Assembly: GCA_002314685.1 (NCBI GenBank)
Contig: DCHB01000065.1
Coordinates: forward strand, 19,007 to 43,006
DNA: 24,000 bases
Source of the DNA: Clostridiales bacterium UBA1763
Lineage (GTDB): Bacteria; Bacillota; Clostridia; Oscillospirales; Oscillospiraceae
Reading direction: 5' to 3'
This document shows, piece by piece, positions 3,164 through 23,087 of the stretch. Below the pieces are notes generated by a model. The model made no database searches. It was not told the DNA's origin and saw only the letters and a program-made list of their open reading frames with translations. Each line of letters opens with the position of its first letter. Positions within the stretch are counted from its first letter, which is position 1. A program made the translations under genes and the position numbers.

Positions 3164-3360
3164 ATCTCGGTTAAACGCTTCATTTAATCGTTTTTGCGGT
3201 GTCCCGACCAGTGACATTCTGCTAAAGTTAAGATGTACCCTAACACATCGGTACACCGCATAGTTCTTCACTCATTGCGCTTCGCTCCATTCACCCCTAC
3301 GGAGTTGGATTTAGCTTGCACCCTCACTCATCACTCATCACTCATCACTCATAGTTCTTC
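3164..3360 (+). repeat. Mosaic intergenic repeat: long S module (3164-3246) plus one R unit with a TCACTCA heptamer tail
   Basis: 3164-3246 is near-identical to 20716-20797. 3272-3360 contains the core CATTCACCCCTACGG (3289-3303) and 3x TCACTCA (3325-3345), as in the units at 19699-21046. Confidence 0.85.
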
Positions 3361-3453
3361 ACTCATCTGCTCTTGACTATTTCGCTTTTTTAGTGCAAAA
3401 TAGTATAGGGAAAGAAGCTTTGTCGGCTTTGAAAAGCCAAAGGAGACAGATAA

Positions 3454-5443: not shown

Positions 5444-5538
5444 GCACTCATCGCTCATCACTCATCACTCTTCACTCTCTCACCGGTCGGGACACCGCAA
5501 TAACGATTAGATAAAGCGTTTAACCGAGATTAAAAAAA
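5444..5538 (-). repeat. Heptamer tail plus short S module (inverted orientation) ending in a T-run
   Basis: The minus strand of 5480-5538 reads TTTTTTTAATCTCGGTTAAACGCTTTATCTAATCGTTATTGCGGTGTCCCGACCGGTGA. This matches 9861-9917, 3158-3213 and 20711-20769. Confidence 0.8.
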
Positions 5539-5665
5539 CGGGGTCATTTCATTCCCTCCTACGGCGTTGTATTTGTCTGCACCCGTCCACTCATCACTCA
5601 TCACTCATAGTTCTTCACTCAACTATTCACTCATCACTCTTAGTTCTTCACTCGCAAAGCGGGCT
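5539..5665 (+). repeat. Hairpin-arm variant plus R-type loop segment plus TCACTCA heptamer tails; overlaps the 3' end of dpaB
   Basis: CGGGGTCATTTCATTCCCTCCTACGG (5539-5564) is the reverse complement of the CCGTAGG.GGGAATGAAATGACCCCG arm seen at 19854 and 20684. The tail TAGTTCTTCACTCGCAAAGCGGGCT (5641-5665) equals 9998-10022. Confidence 0.8.
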
Positions 5666-9089: not shown

Positions 9090-9256
9090 GAGGGATGTTT
9101 TATCCTGCCTTTGAAGCAGAGGCTTTGTTGGAAAGTGTCTGTGGAGGCTCTTACAGGGTTGTGTGGTTTCCTGGCGCCAACTTAGGCTTATGCCGAAAAT
9201 AAAAACACTCGATTTTAACGACTAATCGCCTCGTCTTCTATGTCGGGGCGATTTTT
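9090..9256 (+). ncRNA. Unclassified ~165-nt promoter-to-terminator transcript (candidate sRNA, cis-regulatory leader or RNA antitoxin)
   Basis: It is bounded by the promoter above and the terminator at 9225-9256. It contains local hairpins (for example GGGAT/ATCCT at 9092-9106) and a thrice-repeated AGGCT(T/C) (9120, 9145, 9184). I recognise no known riboswitch consensus. Confidence 0.45.
9225..9256 (+). terminator. Intrinsic terminator 22 nt upstream of the orphan ORF
   Basis: ATCGCCTCG (9225-9233) pairs with CGGGGCGAT (9244-9252), giving 9 bp including one G.U. The loop is 10 nt and the T-run is 9252-9256. Confidence 0.7.
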
Positions 9257-9867: not shown

Positions 9868-9950
9868 AATTTCGGTTAAACGCTTTATCTAATCTATTTT
9901 GCCGATTCCCGACCGGTGTGATGAGTGATGAGTGATGAGTGATGAGTGAA
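9868..9950 (+). repeat. Short S module (9868-9917) plus 4x GTGATGA heptamers (9918-9945, inverted tail)
   Basis: AATTTCGGTTAAACGCTTTATCTAATC..CCCGACCGGTG matches the other S copies. Four perfect GTGATGA copies follow. Confidence 0.85.
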
Positions 9951-9974
9951 TAGTTTTTCTTAAACATCAAACTT

Positions 9975-10053
9975 CCTCACTCTTAGTTCATCACTCATAG
10001 TTCTTCACTCGCAAAGCGGGCTCATTTCGCTTGCGCTCCATTCACCCCTACGG
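9975..10053 (+). repeat. R unit left half (tail, GCAAAGCGGGCTCATT, core CATTCACCCCTACGG)
   Basis: 9998-10053 aligns with 19785-19835 and with the units at 20429-21046. The core 15-mer is at 10039-10053. Confidence 0.85.
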
Positions 10054-10290
10054 GTGCAGACTAAGACAAAAAAACCGTGCAAGTTTGCACCGCGGTAGCC
10101 TGTAAAGATGTGCGTGGCTGAAGTGAATAGAAAACCGCCGCAGGTGCATCGGGGGAATACCAAGTAAAGACTTTGCGGCGGAAATAGTGTGCTCAGGGGA
10201 TTCCAAAGGGTTCTCCCTTTGGTCGCGTTTCTTTTGCAACTTTTCTTTGGCGAACACAAAGAAAAGTCGAAGAAATTACAGCTGCAGTAA
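10054..10290 (-). repeat. X element copy 2 (inverted relative to copy 1)
   Basis: Its reverse complement aligns end to end with 5200-5443. Hairpins lie at 10240-10266, 10203-10222 and 10077-10090, and an A-run at 10068-10074 gives a T-run on the minus strand. Confidence 0.8.
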
Positions 10291-10320: not shown

Positions 10321-10464
10321 CGTTCTTCACTCGTTTTGCGGGCTCATTTCGCTATCGCTCCATTCACCCCTACGGGCGTTGGATTAAGTCTGTACCGTTC
10401 ACTCATCACTCATCACTCATCGTTCTTCACTCAACTATTCACTCATCACTCATCGTTCTTCACT
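10321..10464 (+). repeat. R unit with extended TCACTCA heptamer tails
   Basis: The core 15-mer is at 10361-10375, 3x TCACTCA lie at 10399-10419, and the tail CGTTCTTCACTC is repeated. Confidence 0.85.
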
Positions 10465-18094: not shown

Positions 18095-18307
18095 ATGGAA
18101 AAAATTGAAATCAGCACGGAATTTATAAAGCTCGACTCGCTTTTGAAATTTGCCGCACTCGTCGGTACGGGCGGTGAGGCAAAATACGTGATTGCAGAGG
18201 GCATGGTTAAGGTCAACGGTGAGATCTGCACTCAGCGCGGCAAGAAAATTTACGCGGGCGATAAGGTCAGCTTTGAAAATAACGAGCTTGAAATTGTTAA
18301 AGCATGA
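18095..18307 (+). CDS. yaaA: S4-domain RNA-binding protein YaaA
   Basis: The product is 70 aa, with IKLDSLLKFAALVGTGGEAKYVIAEGMVKVNGE. It occupies the conserved position between dnaN and recF. Confidence 0.85.
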   Translation: MEKIEISTEFIKLDSLLKFAALVGTGGEAKYVIAEGMVKVNGEICTQRGKKIYAGDKVSFENNELEIVKA

Positions 18308-19404
18308 AAATTAACAGAATAGCCCTTAACGGCTTTCGTAATTACGATTTTGAAACTGCGGAATTTTCGCCCGAGACGAATGTAATCTACGGCGAAAATG
18401 CGCAGGGCAAAACTAATCTTTTAGAGGCGGTTTATATTTTAGCTGCGGGCAAAAGCTTCCGCACGAGATTTGACCGCGAGCTTATAGGCTTCGGCTGTGA
18501 TTCGGCTGAAATTTTAGCCGACATTGAAAGTCATGAGCGCGAGCAGACGGTGAGAATTGTTTTCCGCAACGGTGTCCGCAAGCAGATAACGGTCAATGCC
18601 GTTAAGAAGACTGCCTCGGAGCTCAGCGGAACACTTACCGCGGTGCTGTTTTCTCCCGATGACTTAAATCTTATCAAGGAGGGCGCGGCGGCACGGCGCA
18701 GGCTTATGGATAACGCCATAAGTCAGATAAGACCGCGCTATGCGGAGTATCTTTCGCAGTACAACAAGCTTTACGAGAGCAAGACGCGAATACTGAAGGA
18801 TTGGCGCGAAAAGCCCTCACTGCTCGACACGCTCGACGATTTTTCCGACGGGATGTGCAGATATTCTGCTCAGCTCATCCGATACCGCGCCGCATTTGCC
18901 GCAAGGCTTGCGGAGGAGGCGGCACCCATTCACAGCGAGTTTTCGGGTGCGGGCGAGAGGCTCGGAATTGAGTATTCAACCGTTTCGACGGTTAAAAATC
19001 CGACGGGCTCCGCGCAGGAGATTTATTATGATTTGTGTGAGCATCAGGAGGCGCACCGCAAGGCTGAGATTGAGTCTCAGCAGTGCCTCACGGGTGCGCA
19101 TAAGGACGACCTTCTGATTTCCATAAACGGTCAGACCGCGCGCAGCTTCGCAAGTCAGGGACAGACGAGGACGGCGGCACTTTCAATAAAGCTTGCCGAG
19201 CGCGAAATCTATCTTGACGAGACGGGCGAGTATCCGATTTTACTGCTCGACGATGTTTTGAGCGAGCTTGACACACGCAGGCAGGAGTTTGTGCTCAACC
19301 GCATAGGCGGCGGGCAGACGCTCATCACCTGCTGTGAGGATGAGGGTATTTCAAACCGCACGGGAGGCAAGGTTCTGCACGTTGAGAAAGGCAGGATACG
19401 CTGA
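18304..19404 (+). CDS. recF: DNA replication/repair protein RecF
   Basis: It has Walker A GENAQGKTNLLEA, an SMC-like signature GQTRTAALSIKLAE, and Walker B ILLLDDVLSELD. The start overlaps the yaaA stop (ATGA). Confidence 0.9.
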   Translation: MKINRIALNGFRNYDFETAEFSPETNVIYGENAQGKTNLLEAVYILAAGKSFRTRFDRELIGFGCDSAEILADIESHEREQTVRIVFRNGVRKQITVNAVKKTASELSGTLTAVLFSPDDLNLIKEGAAARRRLMDNAISQIRPRYAEYLSQYNKLYESKTRILKDWREKPSLLDTLDDFSDGMCRYSAQLIRYRAAFAARLAEEAAPIHSEFSGAGERLGIEYSTVSTVKNPTGSAQEIYYDLCEHQEAHRKAEIESQQCLTGAHKDDLLISINGQTARSFASQGQTRTAALSIKLAEREIYLDETGEYPILLLDDVLSELDTRRQEFVLNRIGGGQTLITCCEDEGISNRTGGKVLHVEKGRIR

Positions 19405-19670
19405 TGTATCTGCATTTAGGCTCGGGTGCCGTTGTGCGCACGGAGAGCATTATCGGTGTGTTCGACCTTGACAACACAAGCCAGTCGCATATTACGAGAA
19501 AATATCTTTCCGCCGCTGAAAAAAGCGGTCAGGTTATAAATGTTGCCGAGGATATTCCGAAGTCCTTCGTCGTGTGCAGTGACGCGGACGGATGCAGGGT
19601 TTATCTCAGTCAGATGGCAACGCAGACACTCTTAAAACGAGCAAACGATAAAATCACTGATTTTAAGTGA
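19404..19670 (+). CDS. remB: DUF370-family protein (RemB/YaaB-like)
   Basis: The product is 88 aa, with GVFDLDNTS..ITRKYL..AEKSGQVINV..IPKSFVV. It occupies the conserved position after recF. The start overlaps the recF stop. Confidence 0.8.
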   Translation: MYLHLGSGAVVRTESIIGVFDLDNTSQSHITRKYLSAAEKSGQVINVAEDIPKSFVVCSDADGCRVYLSQMATQTLLKRANDKITDFK

Positions 19671-19880
19671 TGAACTAAGAGTGAAGAGTGATGAGTTAGC
19701 GGGCTCATTGCGCTACGCTCCATTCACCCCTACGGTGTTGGATTTAGTCTTCATCCGTTTACTAATCACTCATAGTTCATAGTTCATCACTCGCAAAGCG
19801 GGCTCATTGCGCTACGCTACATTCACCCCTACGGCGAAAAACTAAGTCAGCATCCGTAGGGGGGAATGAAATGACCCCGC
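19667..19880 (+). repeat. Inverted heptamer tail, then two R units (99-bp period), then a complete 15-bp-stem hairpin
   Basis: The GCGGGCTC anchors are at 19699 and 19798, and the core 15-mers at 19721 and 19820. The hairpin pairs 19820-19834 with 19854-19868, followed by AAATGACCCCG. Confidence 0.85.
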
Positions 19881-20709
19881 AATACTTGCAACAAAAAAAC
19901 GGAGGCGCTTATGCAAGAGAACAGAGAATATCCTAAACGCAAGCAAATCCGTTTGCCGAATTATGACTATGCTTCTAATGGGGCATATCACGTGATAATT
20001 TGCACATTAAAAAAACAGAAAATTCTATCAGAAATTATCCCGCCCGCAGACGAGCTTTCACCCCCGCAAATAAATCTGACAGAAGTCGGCACAAAAGCAG
20101 AAAAAGCTATACAGGCATTCAGCCGTCGATACAGCTTCATTCACATTTCTGAATATTGCATCATGCCGAATCACATTCACCTGATGATTGAATACGGAGC
20201 AGAAGAGTCTTCGAAAATTAAAAGCGTTTCCTTAAGCAATGTGATAAGCAGATTGAAAAGCACAATAAGCGTCGCCGCAGGGCATAAGCTGTGGGAGAAA
20301 AGCTTTTACGAGCATGTTATCAGAGACGAGCAGGACTATATAGCTACAATAAAATACATTCAAGATAACCCCGCAAAATGGAATCTCGATAAATATTACC
20401 TATAGCAAACAGTTTTGACATTGGTTAGACGGGCTCATTGCGCTATCGCTCCATTCACCCCTACGGTGTTGGATTTAGCTTGCACCCGCTTACTAATCAC
20501 TAATAGTTCATAGTTCATCACTCTTAAAGCGGGCTCATTGCGCTACGCTTCATTCACCCCTACGGTGTTGGATTTAGTCTGCACCCGTTTACTGATCACT
20601 CATGGTTCATAGTTCATCACTCACAAAGCGGGCTCATTGCGCTACGCTCCATTCACCCCTACGGTGTTGAATTTAGCTTGCACCCGTAGGGGGGAATGAA
20701 ATGACCCCG
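19820..20709 (+). mobile_element. Hairpin-bounded RAYT/IS200-like unit (possible mobile or domesticated element)
   Basis: Identical-geometry hairpins (15-bp stem, 19-nt loop, same strand) at 19820-19868 and 20650-20698 bracket the transposase gene plus two R units. Confidence 0.45.
19911..20405 (+). CDS. IS200-like HUH/Y1 tyrosine transposase of the REP-associated (RAYT, COG1943-like) type
   Basis: It has RLPNYDYASNGAYHVIICT at the N-terminus, the HUH motif PNHIHLMI, and a C-terminal WEKSFYEHVIRDEQDY...YIQDNPAKW. The GGAGG RBS is 5 nt upstream. G+C is about 38% in a sampled stretch. Confidence 0.85.
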   Translation: MQENREYPKRKQIRLPNYDYASNGAYHVIICTLKKQKILSEIIPPADELSPPQINLTEVGTKAEKAIQAFSRRYSFIHISEYCIMPNHIHLMIEYGAEESSKIKSVSLSNVISRLKSTISVAAGHKLWEKSFYEHVIRDEQDYIATIKYIQDNPAKWNLDKYYL

Positions 20710-21046
20710 TCTTTTCAATCTCGGTTAAACGCTTCATCTAATCGTTTTTGCAGGTGTCCCGACCGGTGACATTCTGCTAAAGTCAAGATGTACCCTAACT
20801 AATCAGTGCACAGCAAAGTTCAGCACAAAGCGGGCTCATTACGCTATCGCTCCATTCACCCCTACGGCGTTGGATTAAGCTTGCACCCGTTCACTAATCA
20901 CTAATCACTCATAGTTCATCACTCACAAAGCGGGCTCATTGCGCTATCGCTTCATTCACCCCTACGGCGTTAGATTTAGCTTGCACCCGTTTACTAATCA
21001 CTCATCACTCTTCACTCTTCACTTTTAGTTCTTAGTTCATCACTAA
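20429..21046 (+). repeat. Array of five R units (99-100-bp period) interrupted by a complete hairpin and a long S module (20716-20797)
   Basis: The GCGGGCTC anchors are at 20429, 20529, 20628, 20830 and 20930. The core 15-mers are at 20452, 20551, 20650, 20853 and 20953. The array ends in heptamer-type tails and an A/T run at 21045-21056. Confidence 0.9.
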
Positions 21047-21155
21047 AAAATTTTTTGTTAAAATAATTTTTTTGTTGTACGCAAACGTACAAGTTTTGCC
21101 CCGATGCGCCGTATGGGTAGAGGAGCAAATTTACAGTTGAAAGGCGATTTGAAAA

Positions 21156-23087
21156 ATGTCCGACATTAACGAAAAAATTACACAGGAATATGACGCCTCG
21201 CAAATTCAGGTGCTCGAGGGACTCGAGGCAGTCCGTAAGCGCCCGGGTATGTATATAGGCTCGACCTCGTCATCGGGTCTGCATCACCTCGTTTACGAAA
21301 TTGTCGATAACTCAATCGACGAGGCGCTCGCAGGCTACTGCAACCGTATTGAGGTAGTAATCGAGCCCGGCGACGTTATTTCCGTCACCGATAACGGACG
21401 CGGCATCCCCGTCGATATTCAGGAGCAGACGGGCAAGAGCGCTCTTGAGGTCGTATTCACCGTTCTGCACGCGGGCGGCAAGTTCGGCGGCGGAGGCTAT
21501 AAGGTCTCGGGCGGTCTGCACGGTGTCGGCGCATCTGTCGTCAACGCGATGAGCGAATGGCTCATCGTTCAGGTACACAAGAACGGCAAAATTTATGAAA
21601 TGCGCTTTTCAAGAGGCAACATCACGCAGGAGATGCGCATAGTCGGCGACACTGACCGCACAGGCACAACAGTGCGCTTCAAGCCCGATCCCGAAATGTT
21701 CGACGAGACCGTTTACGACTATGAAATTCTGCACACCCGTATGCGTGAGCAGGCGTTCTTGAACGGCGGACTTTACATTTCCACCGAGGATAAGCGCGAG
21801 GGCAAGGAGCAGAAGGACGAGATGTGCTACGAGGGCGGCATCCGTGAATTCGTCAGCTTCATAAATCAGAACAAGACCCCCATGCACAGCGACGTTATCT
21901 ATATGCGCGGCGAGCGCGCCGACTCTGAGGCGGAGATTGCCCTGCAATATAATGACAGCTACAACGAAATTACGGTTTCGTTTGCAAATAACATTCACAC
22001 CCCCGAGGGCGGTATGCACGAGACGGGCTTCCGCACCGCATTAACCCGCGTGCTGAATGCTTACGGCATAAAGGCGGGTATTCTCAAAAACGACGACAAG
22101 CTTTCGGGCGAGGACTGCCGCGAGGGTATGACGGCGATTATTTCCGTCAAGCTCACCGAGCCGCAGTTTGAGGGACAGACCAAGGCGAAGCTCGGCAACA
22201 GCGAGATGAGAACGCTTGTTGACAGCGTTGTCTCCGACAAGCTCGAGCAGTTTTTAGAGGAAAATCCCGCAGTCGGCAAGACAATTCTTGAGAAGGCGAT
22301 GACCGCATCGAGAGCACGCGAGGCGGCAAGAAAGGCAAGAGAATCCGTGCGCCGCAAGACGGGGCTTGAATCGGGACAGATGCCCGACAAGCTTCAGGAC
22401 TGCAACGAGCGTGACCCGAGCCTCTGCGAAATTTACATCGTCGAGGGTGACTCCGCCGCAGGCTCCGCAATTCAGGGCAGAGACTCCCGCTTCCAGGCGA
22501 TTCTTGCCATGTGGGGCAAGATGCTCAACGTCGAAAAGGCAAGAGCAGATAAAATTTACGGCAACGACAAGCTGTACCCGCTAATAGTCGCTCTCGGCGC
22601 GGGCATAGGCGATGAGTTCAACATCGAAAAGCTCCGCTACCACAAGATAATAATTATGGCCGATGCCGATGTCGACGGTGCTCATATCAGAACGTTACTT
22701 TTAACATTCTTCTTCAGATTTATGCGTCCGCTTATAGATAACGGCTACGTTTATTCGGCTGTTCCGCCGCTTTATAAGCTTACAAGAGGCAAAAACACGA
22801 AGGTTGCATACTCCGACGAGGAGCGTGACCGCATAAGTGCGGAGCTTAAGGAAGGCAATCCGAACGCAAAAGTCGATATTTCAAGATATAAAGGTCTCGG
22901 TGAAATGAATCCGCAGGAGCTTTGGGAAACGACAATGGACCCCGAAAGACGTACGCTGAGAAAAATCACTCTCGAGGATGCCGAAGAAGCCGACAGAATT
23001 TTCTCGATTCTTATGGGCGAACAGGTTGACCCACGACGTGAGTATATCGAAGAAAACGCAAGATATGCGGTAAACTTGGACTACTAA
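21156..23087 (+). CDS. gyrB: DNA gyrase subunit B
   Basis: The 643-aa product has the GHKL ATPase N-terminus ([29 protein letters not shown]), a Toprim domain ([13 protein letters not shown]-like [21 protein letters not shown]) and the tail [16 protein letters not shown]. Confidence 0.95.

What the first reader, a model, noticed from the sequence alone, without database searches (positions are those of the whole stretch)
19820..20709. RAYT/IS200-like HUH transposase inserted in the conserved recF-remB-gyrB block and bracketed by two same-strand hairpins of identical geometry
ORF 19911-20405 has the HUH motif (PNHIHLMI) and the WEKSFYEHVIRDE...YIQDNP block of IS200-like Y1 transposases of the REP-associated type. 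It expands the normally short remB-gyrB spacer to about 1.5 kb. Two hairpins on the same strand bracket it. In the first, CATTCACCCCTACGG (19820-19834) pairs with CCGTAGGGGGGAATG (19854-19868). In the second, the same arms lie at 20650-20664 and 20684-20698. Each stem is 15 bp with one A.G mismatch, each loop is 19 nt but of different sequence, and each hairpin is followed by AAATGACCCCG. The right arm contains GTAG, the tetranucleotide conserved beside REP palindromes processed by proteobacterial RAYTs. Same-strand hairpins on both sides look more like the LE/RE ends of IS200/IS605 than the inverted REP pairs around classical RAYTs. This could therefore be an intermediate form: either a still-mobile ~890-bp unit, or a domesticated enzyme servicing the ~100-bp repeat family in a Firmicute.
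Basis: partly seen in the sequence, partly recalled or inferred. Interest (0 to 1): 0.65.

Follow-up and report, generated by a model that had tools for sequence, protein, structure and literature searches.

The report
Single-copy RAYT nuclease amid its repeats
This is a single-copy, domesticated hairpin-cutting transposase (a RAYT) lying inside a cluster of its own species-specific intergenic repeats in a gut-type Clostridia genome; it is a known kind of system with unusual repeats, not a jumping insertion sequence or an intermediate form.

Summary
ORF 19911-20405 is an intact HUH/Y1 enzyme (H88, H90, Y149, N153). The two 15-bp/19-nt-loop hairpins, each followed by AAATGACCCCG, lie where stated.

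The hairpins are not element ends. They are 2 of about 10-13 genomic copies of one module of a mosaic, intergenic, species-specific repeat family. That family has about 39 'L' half-sites and 13 'R1' half-sites on at least 11 of 86 contigs. Each hairpin is a head-to-head pair of GTAGGGG-headed half-sites (CCCCTACGG-N19-CCGTAGGGG). The BIMEs around E. coli rayT have the same geometry.

The gene is single copy. It has the class-2 RAYT signature (NHIH, Y-x3-NP) and matches TnpA-REP (4ER8) best. It belongs to a large Clostridia clade (102 of 401 genomes of the order) that resembles Quentin subclass 2.4. In 64 of 80 homologues a GTAG-REP pair lies in frame inside the gene; the window's lineage has lost it. 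Its closest homologue (54%) is flanked by homologous CCCCTACGG arrays. GTAGGG/CCCTAC is enriched 3-4x next to family members.

Verdict: a REPtron-like RAYT locus, a new member of a known kind with atypical repeats whose half-sites are not palindromes.

Side finding: RAYTs of this clade recur in the recF-remB-gyrB block (five other lineages).

The parts
19404..19670 (+). remB (RemA-like), upstream neighbour; recF lies at 18304-19404
   Evidence: Pfam PF04025 30.3 bits and recF SMC_N 68 bits; the recF-remB-gyrB order is conserved in the genus
19661..19797 (+). Inverted heptamer arm (19661-19703) plus A-type unit 1 (L half-site with core 19720-19735, spacer, heptamer tail). Together they fold as a ~130-nt hairpin
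   Evidence: I7, D1; fold -26.8 kcal/mol, z -5.6
19798..19879 (+). B-type hairpin 1: L half-site (…CATTCACCCCTACGG, 19798-19834), 19-nt loop, R1 half-site (CCGTAGGGGGGAATGAAATGACCCCG, 19854-19879)
   Evidence: I17; z -5.7 and -6.5
19901..19905 (+). GGAGG ribosome-binding site, 5 nt upstream of the ATG
   Evidence: read directly from the sequence
19911..20405 (+). RAYT / TnpA-REP-type HUH-Y1 gene, 164 aa. Key residues: H88-I-H90, W128-E129, E134-H135, R138, Y149, N153-P154
   Evidence: Pfam Y1_Tnp 31.6 bits. NCBIfam REP_Tyr_transpos 59 bits against IS200 27 bits. Best PDB match 4ER8 by sequence and by fold. Invariant residues. Single copy
20430..20627 (+). A-type units 2 and 3 (L cores at 20451-20466 and 20550-20565), period 99 nt
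   Evidence: D1; TRF period 99, 5.8 copies
20628..20709 (+). B-type hairpin 2 (L 20628-20664, loop 20665-20683, R1 20684-20709)
   Evidence: I19; z -5.3 and -6.9
20710..20830 (+). T module (TTTTCAATCTCGG…ACGCTTCATCTAATCG…GTCCCGACCGGTGAC…), which follows R1 in at least 7 composite copies
   Evidence: related ACCGGTCGGGAC repeats occur in genus relatives
20831..21046 (+). A-type units 4 and 5 (L cores at 20852-20867 and 20952-20967) with a long heptamer tail
21074..21091 (+). TTGTACGCAAACGTACAA palindrome in the ancestral gyrB leader. It marks the right edge of the inserted ~1.37 kb
   Evidence: the same sequence lies in the short spacers of relatives L111, L114, L117 and L120
21156..23087 (+). 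gyrB, downstream neighbour
   Evidence: Pfam DNA_gyraseB 212.7 bits
3287..3302 (+). Further L core of the same family elsewhere in the window. Others lie at 10038-10053 and 10360-10375, and an R1 at 5539-5564 (minus strand)
   Evidence: converted from contig C8 coordinates by subtracting 19006

Best explanation
The ORF is a single-copy, domesticated HUH/Y1 single-strand DNA nuclease-ligase of the RAYT (TnpA-REP) class. It belongs to a large Clostridia clade that resembles Quentin subclass 2.4 (Bertels group 4). It lies in a REPtron-like locus, surrounded by the densest cluster of its cognate repeats.

The repeats form a species-specific, intergenic, BIME-like mosaic. Its conserved core is a GTAGGGG-headed half-site in two variants. 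R1 is GTAGGGGGGAATG-AA-ATGACCCCG. L, read on the other strand, is GTAGGGGTGAATG-GAGCGTAGCGC-AATGAGCCCG.

Neither half-site folds alone. When L and R1 lie head to head with a fixed 19-nt loop, single-stranded DNA folds into an ~80-nt bulged hairpin. The two 'bracketing' hairpins are two such dimers, duplicated along with an A unit as a 182-nt block.

Inferred mechanism, by analogy with E. coli TnpA-REP (4ER8; Ton-Hoang 2012; Messing 2012; Corneloup 2021): on transiently single-stranded DNA the enzyme binds the folded dimer. It reads the GTAG(GGG) motif through the W128/E134-H135/R138 region. It then cleaves and rejoins through Tyr149 with the H88/H90 metal site. This copies or moves repeat modules in trans while the gene itself stays put.

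Shown here: enzyme class and intact catalytic residues, single copy, dispersal and intergenic location of the repeats, their restriction to this species, homologous repeats beside the closest homologue, and motif conservation across the family. Inferred only: binding, cleavage and current mobility.
For: Enzyme class:
- The HuH motif is NHIH and the Tyr motif is YIQDNP (Y-x3-NP, the class-2 signature in PMC6006769 Table 1). IS200 has DH[VI]H and Y-x3-Q.
- H88, H90, Y149 and N153 are invariant in a 26-sequence alignment.
- NCBIfam REP_Tyr_transpos scores 59 bits against IS200 27 bits.
- The only PDB sequence hit of this enzyme family is 4ER8 TnpA-REP, E 7e-4.
- The AF2 model (pLDDT 86.5) matches 4ER8 best (TM 0.60, rmsd 3.1), ahead of ISDra2 and IS608.

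Copy number:
- One copy by tblastn and by Pfam HMM over the whole assembly.

Repeat family in this genome:
- About 39 L and 13 R1 copies lie in 24 clusters. Shuffled-pattern controls give 0-5 and 0.
- 0 of 13 R1 and 8 of 50 L-core hits fall in long ORFs that cover 93% of the genome.
- R1 is identical in 11 of 13 copies, and 10 are paired with an L across exactly 19 nt.
- Seven L and two R1 copies lie in this one spacer.

Link between gene and repeats:
- The repeat DNA is absent from 60 relatives, 36 of them in the same genus.
- The closest homologue (54% identical, L027) has five tandem GCGGGATCGCGCTCCGCGCTCTCCCCTACGG units upstream and CCGTAGGGGC downstream.
- Across 80 Clostridia loci, GTAGGG/CCCTAC density is 0.5-0.8 per kb within 300 bp of the gene and 0.15-0.2 per kb further out. 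In 64 of 80 loci the gene carries an internal GTAGGG…CCCTAC pair, the hallmark of subclass 2.4.
- E. coli rayT is flanked by CCTAC-N18-GGTAGG pairs of the same geometry.
Against: - The half-sites are not palindromes (z about 0), so the defining REP feature of GTAG at the foot of its own stem-loop is not met. In the dimer hairpin GTAG lies next to the loop.
- The window protein has E129 where at least 90% of homologues have Q. This is the equivalent of E. coli Q95, a GTAG-contact residue.
- The NCBIfam score is below the equivalog cut-off (59 against 80 bits).
- There is no covariation evidence, because the stems are invariant.
- The genome is a 78%-complete, 86-contig MAG with repeat clusters at contig ends. 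Copy numbers of repeats and of the gene are therefore lower bounds.
- The remB-gyrB spacer collects unrelated repeats in RAYT-less relatives too, so adjacency alone is weak evidence.
- No biochemical data exist for any member of this clade.
Confidence: 0.72

Rival explanations
1. An autonomous IS200/IS605-type insertion sequence of about 890 bp (19820-20709). The two same-strand hairpins would be its LE and RE, and it would have inserted into the remB-gyrB spacer.
For: Two near-identical hairpins lie on the same strand on either side of a Y1 transposase gene. The closest relatives have an ~85-bp spacer without it. The fold also matches the IS608 and ISDra2 TnpA structures.
Against: - The gene is single copy.
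- The Tyr motif is Y-x3-NP, not Y-x3-Q, and HuH is NHIH, not DH[VI]H.
- The IS200 NCBIfam model scores 27 bits against a cut-off of 55.
- The same hairpin occurs at least 10 times without the gene, usually joined to a T module.
- The right 'end' lies 245 nt beyond the stop codon, behind two further repeat units.
- The flanking identity is a 182-nt block duplication (D2).
Confidence: 0.04
2. The RAYT is an inactive or unrelated passenger in a repeat-collecting spacer. The mosaic repeats would spread by slippage, recombination or another enzyme, and would act as terminators or RNA elements.
For: - The remB-gyrB spacers of RAYT-less relatives hold 300-1000 bp of other repeats.
- The B hairpin is usually followed by a T-run (TTTT(TT)CAAT), like a terminator.
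- The clusters favour convergent intergenic regions: 7 of 22 against 15% background.
- The 99-nt tandem arrays and heptamer microsatellites look like slippage products.
- Q129 is replaced by E.
Against: - The ORF is intact, has an RBS and keeps every catalytic residue.
- The closest homologue carries homologous L-like arrays.
- GTAGGG is enriched around homologues across the family.
- The repeats are found only in the genome that holds this RAYT lineage.
- Near-identity of dispersed R1 copies argues for recent, enzyme-driven copying.
Confidence: 0.12
3. A mobile REPtron: the gene together with its flanking repeats moves between genomes as a cassette and prefers the origin-proximal recF-remB-gyrB block. 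This would be a transposase that still relocates itself, at least occasionally.
For: - RAYTs of this clade lie in the recF..gyrB/gyrA block in G012 (36% identical), L069, L032, G301 and G268. These sit on different branches of the RAYT tree or in different host genera and families.
- About 0.3 such cases are expected among ~240 loci.
- The distribution is patchy: 13 of 36 genomes of the genus and 102 of 401 of the order.
- RAYT identity within the genus is at most 41%, while the first 150 residues of GyrB are 91-97% identical.
Against: - There are no identical copies in different genomes and no target-site signature.
- Exact positions differ (recF|RAYT|remB, remB|RAYT|gyrB, recF|RAYT|x|gyrA).
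- Retention bias in a conserved, deletion-protected block could give the same pattern.
- Some of the cases may share ancestry.
Confidence: 0.1

Closest known systems
E. coli K-12 REPtron: rayT (yafM, TnpA-REP, PDB 4ER8) flanked by BIMEs
   Same: - A single-copy HUH/Y1 gene of about 165 aa with the Y-x3-NP motif.
- It is flanked on both sides by members of a dispersed intergenic repeat family carrying GTAG/CTAC.
- Head-to-head CTAC-N18-GTAG pairs lie next to the gene.
- The repeats are mosaic, BIME-like.
- It is the best sequence and fold match.
   Different: - Only 28% identity over 79 aa.
- E. coli REPs are each a bulged palindrome with GTAG at the foot (z -3.9). The window's half-sites do not fold alone (z about 0).
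- HuH is EHMH in E. coli (read from the rayT alignment) and NHIH here.
- The window's repeats form 99-nt tandem units with heptamer microsatellites.
TnpA-Y1 subclass 2.4 of Quentin et al. 2018 (PMC6006769), equal to RAYT group 4 of Bertels et al. 2017 (PMC5581495)
   Same: - The motifs NH[IFV]H, WQ and YIxxNP.
- Low copy number and a patchy distribution across many phyla.
- In the clade, GTAG REPs are inserted in frame inside the gene (64 of 80 loci).
- 'Double-foot' REPs occur, such as GTAGGGGCGTCC-aaa-GGACGTCCCTAC in L028.
   Different: - Neither paper's text names Clostridia among the hosts of this subclass or group. Quentin et al. list Cyanobacteria, Bacteroidetes 'and various phyla'. Bertels et al. 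call group 4 common in Cyanobacteria, Chlorobia and Caldilineae, and mention Clostridia only for group 1.
- The window's lineage, with L027 and L032, has lost the internal REP pair.
- The window has WE rather than WQ.
- Its flanking repeats are not canonical long or double-foot REPs.
- Assignment rests on motifs and features; the authors' own models were not run.
REPIN-RAYT systems of Pseudomonas and Enterobacteria (Bertels & Rainey 2011)
   Same: - Two inverted repeat halves separated by a short spacer form a long hairpin.
- The populations are species-specific and paired with one RAYT.
- Copies are highly homogeneous.
   Different: - Here there are far fewer copies (about 13 dimers, about 39 half-sites, in a partial assembly).
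- Most half-sites are unpaired and arranged in same-orientation tandem arrays.
- The host is a Gram-positive anaerobe.
IS200/IS605 family (IS608, ISDra2)
   Same: The HUH/Y1 fold, hairpin-forming DNA on one strand, and action on single-stranded DNA.
   Different: - Those elements have Y-x3-Q chemistry and multiple identical copies.
- Their hairpins are confined to the element ends, and tnpB is often present.
- None of these is seen here.

Membership tests
RAYT / TnpA-REP (class 2 TnpA-Y1) | HuH motif plus catalytic Tyr in a Y-x3-NP context | tested here: met
   N87-H88-I89-H90 and Y149-IQD-N153-P154. H88, H90, Y149 and N153 are invariant in A1. The signature comes from PMC6006769.
RAYT / TnpA-REP (class 2 TnpA-Y1) | HUH/Y1 fold closest to TnpA-REP | tested here: met
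   AF2 pLDDT 86.5. Foldseek top hit is 4ER8 (E 5e-7, TM 0.60, rmsd 3.1). 4ER8 is the only hit of this enzyme family in the phmmer search of PDB sequences.
RAYT / TnpA-REP (class 2 TnpA-Y1) | One or few diverged copies per genome | tested here: met
   One copy by tblastn and by Pfam HMM. Caveat: the MAG is 78.6% complete.
RAYT / TnpA-REP (class 2 TnpA-Y1) | Gene flanked by members of a repeat family dispersed in intergenic space (REPtron) | tested here: met
   Seven L and two R1 copies flank the gene. About 39 L and 13 R1 copies lie in 24 clusters and are almost all outside long ORFs.
RAYT / TnpA-REP (class 2 TnpA-Y1) | Cognate repeat is a palindrome with 5' GT[AG]G at its foot (canonical REP) | tested here: not met
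   GTAGGGG is present, but L and R1 alone do not fold (z 0.0 to 0.5). Only the L-loop-R1 dimer folds, with GTAG next to the loop. Canonical REPs do flank homologues in G012, L028 and L032.
RAYT / TnpA-REP (class 2 TnpA-Y1) | NCBIfam NF047646 equivalog cut-off (80 bits) | tested here: not met
   59.1 bits. The model appears to be built around proteobacterial RAYTs.
RAYT / TnpA-REP (class 2 TnpA-Y1) | Cleavage and strand transfer on cognate single-stranded repeat DNA | not testable with these tools
   Needs purified protein and oligonucleotides.
Subclass 2.4 (Quentin 2018) / group 4 (Bertels 2017) | Motifs NH[IFV]H, WQ, YIxNNP | tested here: inconclusive
   NHIH is met. The window has WE, while the clade has WQ. 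The window has YIQDNP; the clade has YI(E/D)(S/N/T)NP. The authors' HMMs and MCL clustering were not run.
Subclass 2.4 (Quentin 2018) / group 4 (Bertels 2017) | REPs inserted in frame within the tnpA-REP gene | tested here: not met
   The window gene has no GTAGGG or CCCTAC. In the clade, 64 of 80 genes have GTAGGG at about +114 and CCCTAC at about +300. The window, L027 and L032 form a clade that lacks them.
IS200/IS605 (subclass 1.1) | DH[VI]H and Y-x3-Q motifs; NF033573 cut-off of 55 bits | tested here: not met
   The motifs are NHIH and Y-x3-NP. The model scores 27 bits.
IS200/IS605 (subclass 1.1) | Multiple near-identical full-length copies with hairpins confined to the element ends | tested here: not met
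   The gene is single copy. The hairpin occurs at least 10 times without a gene.
REPIN | Two inverted repeat halves at a fixed short spacing that form a long hairpin, in many homogeneous copies | tested here: met
   10 of 13 R1 copies are paired with an L across exactly 19 nt. R1 is identical in 11 of 13 copies. Fold z is -5.3 to -6.9. The copy number is modest.

The most novel reading that the evidence does not exclude
Two linked possibilities.

(1) This Clostridia RAYT lineage may have changed substrate. Instead of self-folding GTAG REPs it would use non-palindromic GTAGGGG half-sites that become hairpins only as head-to-head dimers. These would otherwise accumulate as same-orientation 99-nt tandem units with heptamer microsatellites. 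That would be a different way for a Y1 enzyme to propagate repeats, and the Q129E change would be co-adapted to it.

(2) RAYT genes of the clade may home to, or be selectively kept in, the origin-proximal recF-remB-gyrB block. That would link a single-strand DNA nuclease to replication initiation, or to supercoiling-controlled gyrB expression.
Probability: 0.15. Interest if true: 0.6.

Novelty: new member of a known kind. Interest (0 to 1): 0.38.

Why it matters
REP/RAYT biology rests almost entirely on Proteobacteria. This locus, and the clade around it (a quarter of sampled genomes of the order), show that the same arrangement is common in gut and rumen Clostridia. That arrangement is one domesticated Y1 enzyme plus a private, fast-evolving intergenic repeat population.

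The clade contains both canonical GTAG REPs, including pairs embedded in frame in the enzyme's own gene, and derived forms such as this one. It is therefore a natural series for asking how a RAYT and its DNA substrate co-evolve.

In practice these repeats break MAG assemblies: clusters lie at contig ends. They also inflate conserved spacers such as remB-gyrB. The recurrent placement next to gyrB and recF is a cheap hypothesis to test at scale.

Tried and rejected
- Fuzzy-regex census of the modules timed out. I replaced it with Hamming scans and shuffled-pattern controls.
- Rfam has no family covering the repeats. The only hit in the window is drum RNA at 9106-9213.
- Promoter and terminator scans of 19600-21200 found nothing above the shuffles.
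- The exact protein is not on record elsewhere.
- The R1 26-mer is absent from JGI metagenome contigs. The L 20-mer gave three identical chance hits inside an unrelated coding region.
- I did not attempt a covariation test of the hairpin. The stems are invariant across copies, so it could say nothing.
- I considered whether L or R1 alone is a weak REP (GGGG…CCCC stem) and rejected it: z is about 0.
- I considered a strand bias of L modules across dnaA. All L cores on contig C8 are on the + strand on both sides of dnaA, but there are too few independent sites and oriC is not located.
- The control genomes of the genome search returned no loci, so reference sequences for all RAYT groups were unavailable. 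Only E. coli RayT served as outgroup.
Full report
**Observation**

The sequence is as described. ORF 19911-20405 encodes 164 aa, with GGAGG 5 nt upstream of the ATG. It lies between remB (19404-19670, Pfam RemA-like) and gyrB (21156-23087) in the block dnaA-dnaN-yaaA-recF-remB-gyrB.

The two hairpins have the stated geometry (I17 and I19). They pair 19820-19834 with 19854-19868, and 20650-20664 with 20684-20698. Each has 15 bp with one A.G mismatch, a 19-nt loop, and a following AAATGACCCCG.

The pairing continues outward. CGGGCTCAT pairs with ATGACCCCG across an asymmetric internal loop, which gives an ~80-nt structure. As single-stranded DNA it folds at -22 to -25 kcal/mol, with z -5.3 to -6.9 on either strand.

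**What surrounds the gene**

The hairpins are not isolated.

- The spacer is a mosaic of ~99-nt units (Tandem Repeats Finder period 99).
- The order is: an inverted heptamer arm, then [A][B], the gene, [A][A][B], a T module, [A][A], then the gyrB leader.
- An A unit is an 'L' half-site (GCGGGCTCATTGCGCT..CGCTCCATTCACCCCTACGG), a ~19-nt spacer and a heptamer-rich tail.
- A B unit is L, a 19-nt loop and 'R1' (CCGTAGGGGGGAATGAAATGACCCCG).
- The two hairpins are the ends of a 182-nt direct duplication of [A+B], 91% identical (D2).

Read on the opposite strand, L is an R1 variant with an 11-nt insert. R1 is GTAGGGGGGAATG-AA-ATGACCCCG. L is GTAGGGGTGAATG-GAGCGTAGCGC-AATGAGCCCG.

Each 'hairpin' is therefore a head-to-head inverted pair of GTAGGGG-headed half-sites. 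Neither half-site folds alone (z about 0). The canonical REPs of a congener and of E. coli do fold (z -2.3 and -3.9).

**Genome-wide census**

The window is C8:19007-43006 of a 1.6-Mb, 86-contig, 78.6%-complete MAG.

- The L core occurs about 39 times and R1 13 times, on at least 11 contigs. The shuffled-pattern controls give 0-5 and 0 hits respectively.
- The copies form 24 clusters, several at contig ends.
- 0 of 13 R1 hits and 8 of 50 L-core hits fall in stop-to-stop ORFs of at least 120 aa, which cover 93% of the genome.
- Convergent intergenic regions are over-represented: 7 of 22 against 15% background.
- R1 is identical in 11 of 13 copies. Ten are paired with an L across exactly 19 nt, although the loop sequences differ.
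- A ~230-nt composite (L, spacer, R1, T, heptamers) recurs at least 7 times at 88-91% identity. Its left edge is sharp, at CGGGCTCATT.

The family behaves like the BIME and REPIN populations of Proteobacteria.

**The protein**

- Pfam Y1_Tnp scores 31.6 bits.
- NCBIfam REP_Tyr_transpos scores 59 bits, below its cut-off of 80. IS200 scores 27 bits against a cut-off of 55.
- The only PDB sequence hit of this enzyme family is E. coli TnpA-REP, 4ER8.
- The AlphaFold model (pLDDT 86.5) matches 4ER8 first (TM 0.60, rmsd 3.1). The IS608, ISDra2 and IS200 transposases follow.
- Its motifs are NHIH, W128-E129 and Y149-IQD-N153-P154. By the classification of Quentin et al. 2018 (PMC6006769), Y-x3-NP marks class 2 (TnpA-REP) and Y-x3-Q marks IS200. 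NH[IFV]H / WQ / YIxNNP marks subclass 2.4, which is Bertels group 4.
- H88, H90, Y149 and N153 are invariant among 26 homologues. Q129 is conserved in at least 90% of them but is E in the window protein. It aligns with E. coli Q95, a GTAG contact.
- The gene is single copy by tblastn and by HMM.

**The family**

Homologues are abundant in Clostridia.

- At least 507 loci were confirmed in the species-level genome collection. By their record titles nearly all of the best 80 come from Clostridia, among them Oscillospiraceae, Acutalibacteraceae and Ruminococcaceae.
- The family is present in 102 of 401 genomes and 64 of 179 genera of the order, at 1-9 copies per genome.
- Within the genus it is patchy (13 of 36 genomes) and at most 41% identical to the window protein. 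The first 150 residues of GyrB are 91-97% identical across the genus.
- In 64 of 80 loci the gene contains GTAGGG at about +114 and CCCTAC at about +300. This is a GTAG-REP pair such as GTAGGGGCGAGCATTGCTCGCCC, read in frame as GASIARP and GRAMLAP. Quentin et al. describe this peculiarity for subclass 2.4.
- GTAGGG/CCCTAC density is 0.5-0.8 per kb within 300 bp of the genes and 0.15-0.2 per kb further away.
- In a FastTree rooted on E. coli RayT, the window protein groups with L027 and L032 in a clade that has lost the internal pair.

**Evidence linking this gene to these repeats**

1. The densest cluster of the family flanks the gene.
2. The repeat DNA is absent from 60 relatives, 36 of them congeners, and from JGI metagenome contigs.
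3. The closest homologue (P0001, 54% identical, L027) is preceded by five tandem copies of GCGGGATCGCGCTCCGCGCTCTCCCCTACGG…. This unit is visibly homologous to L. The gene is followed by CCGTAGGGGC.
4. The GTAGGGG core is shared with the canonical REPs of other clade members. Examples are L028 (GTAGGGGCGTCC-aaa-GGACGTCCCTAC, a 'double foot'), G012 and L032.
5. The CTAC-N-GTAG head-to-head geometry is the same as in the BIMEs next to E. coli rayT, CCTAC-N18-GGTAGG. There, too, the nearest REPs on both sides of the gene have the same orientation.

**Insertion at remB-gyrB**

- The closest relatives have an ~85-bp spacer that carries the conserved TTGTACGCAAACGTACAA palindrome. In the window this palindrome lies at 21074-21091.
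- About 1.37 kb (19671 to about 21040) is therefore added material.
- Across the genus the spacer is 27-1150 bp and often holds other repeat families, so it is a repeat sink in general.

**Side finding: a recurrent location**

Other RAYTs of the clade lie in the same conserved block:

- G012: remB-RAYT-gyrB, 36% identical, with canonical REPs.
- A Ruminococcus flavefaciens MAG (L069): remB-RAYT-gyrB.
- Oscillospiraceae SIG462 (L032): recF-RAYT-x-gyrA.
- G301: remB-RAYT-gyrB.
- G268: recF-RAYT-remB-gyrB.
- Four more genomes have a RAYT 6-8.5 kb from gyrB.

By a rough estimate, two spacers out of about 1,500-2,000 per genome and about 240 loci examined give an expectation of about 0.3. Five were observed besides the window. 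This estimate is not corrected for phylogeny. I found no paper reporting this link.

**Mechanism**

The best-supported reading is a REPtron-like locus. A domesticated single-strand DNA nuclease-ligase acts in trans on its private repeat population and does not move itself.

By analogy with E. coli TnpA-REP (4ER8; PMC3479197; PMC8266576), the enzyme would bind the folded L-loop-R1 hairpin on transiently single-stranded DNA. It would read GTAG(GGG) and cleave and rejoin through Tyr149. These steps are inferred; nothing here tests catalysis.

The unusual points are:

- the half-sites are not palindromes;
- most L sites are unpaired and lie in same-orientation tandem arrays;
- heptamer microsatellites ((CACTCAT)n and similar) join the modules in either orientation;
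- Q129 is replaced by E.

**Rivals**

- An autonomous IS200/IS605 element is essentially excluded by copy number, motifs, and hairpins that occur without the gene.
- A passenger or inactive RAYT in a repeat sink remains possible (about 0.12).
- A cassette that occasionally relocates to the recF-gyrB block is a partial rival raised by the side finding (about 0.1).

**Limits**

- The genome is an incomplete MAG, so all counts are lower bounds.
- Subclass assignment rests on published motif signatures and features, not on the authors' models.

**Verdict**

It is wrong that the arrangement is IS-like or intermediate. This is a new member of a known kind with atypical cognate repeats, of moderate interest.

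Noticed in passing
L005/L134 (G012), L007, L002, L006, L008, L011 and 64 of the 80 loci L030-L109: Homologous RAYT genes carry a GTAG-REP pair inside the coding sequence: GTAGGGGCGAGCnnnGCTCGCCC at about +114 and its inverse ending in CCCCTAC at about +300. It is read in frame as GASIARP and GRAMLAP, in surface loops. This matches the published subclass 2.4 peculiarity. The window gene and its two closest relatives lack it.
   Followed up: partly
window 18304-23087; L134, L069, L032, L144, L145: RAYT genes of this clade recur in the origin-proximal recF-remB-gyrB(-gyrA) block. Five other lineages show it, in different genera and families, against an expectation of about 0.3 among ~240 loci. 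Four more genomes have one 6-8.5 kb from gyrB. No report of this was found in the literature searched.
   Followed up: partly
window 20710-20830; also 3164-3246, 5480-5531, 9868-9917 (coordinates from earlier notes); L134, L126, L130: The T (or 'S') module, containing GTCCCGACCGGTGAC (ACCGGTCGGGAC on the other strand), follows R1 in the composites. It also occurs alone about 10 times. Related copies lie in the remB-gyrB spacers of congeners, so it is a separate, genus-wide repeat.
   Followed up: partly
window 10057-10140 (after the L core at 10038) and four other genomic sites (C80 8714, C18 28068, C47 23510, C80 11737): An 'X' module (AACCGTGCAAGTTTGCACCGCGGTAGCCTGTAAAGATGTGCGTGGCTGAAG…) is joined to either an L or an inverted R1 through the same CCCCTACGG-GTGCAGACTAAG junction. 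This suggests that modules are shuffled at the half-site.
   Followed up: no
window 3324-3367, 5445-5477, 5588-5641, 9918-10010, 10399-10454, 20993-21023: Heptamer microsatellites ((CACTCAT)n, (CACTCTT)n, (ATAGTTC)n) of variable length border the modules in both orientations. With an inverted copy they form ~130-nt hairpins around an L site (z -5.6).
   Followed up: no
window 9106-9213 (+): Rfam drum RNA (RF02958), 56.3 bits against a gathering score of 43.
   Followed up: no
window 21074-21091; L111, L114, L117, L120, L121, L122, L132: The palindrome TTGTACGCAAACGTACAA about 65 nt upstream of gyrB is conserved across the genus. It may be a gyrB regulatory site.
   Followed up: no
L117, L120, L125, L126, L132, L135 (remB-gyrB spacers of congeners); L128, L130: These spacers hold other repeat families, for example GCCTTCCCCTTGAGGGGAAGGTGTCGGCG.AGCCGACGGATGAGGTG and GGAACGGGCAAGCCCGTTCCCTAC. 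In two genomes the spacer holds a small ORF whose translation (…MTKEERKLWYDFLR…DFYC…) looks to me like a DUF559 or Vsr-like endonuclease; this was not searched.
   Followed up: no
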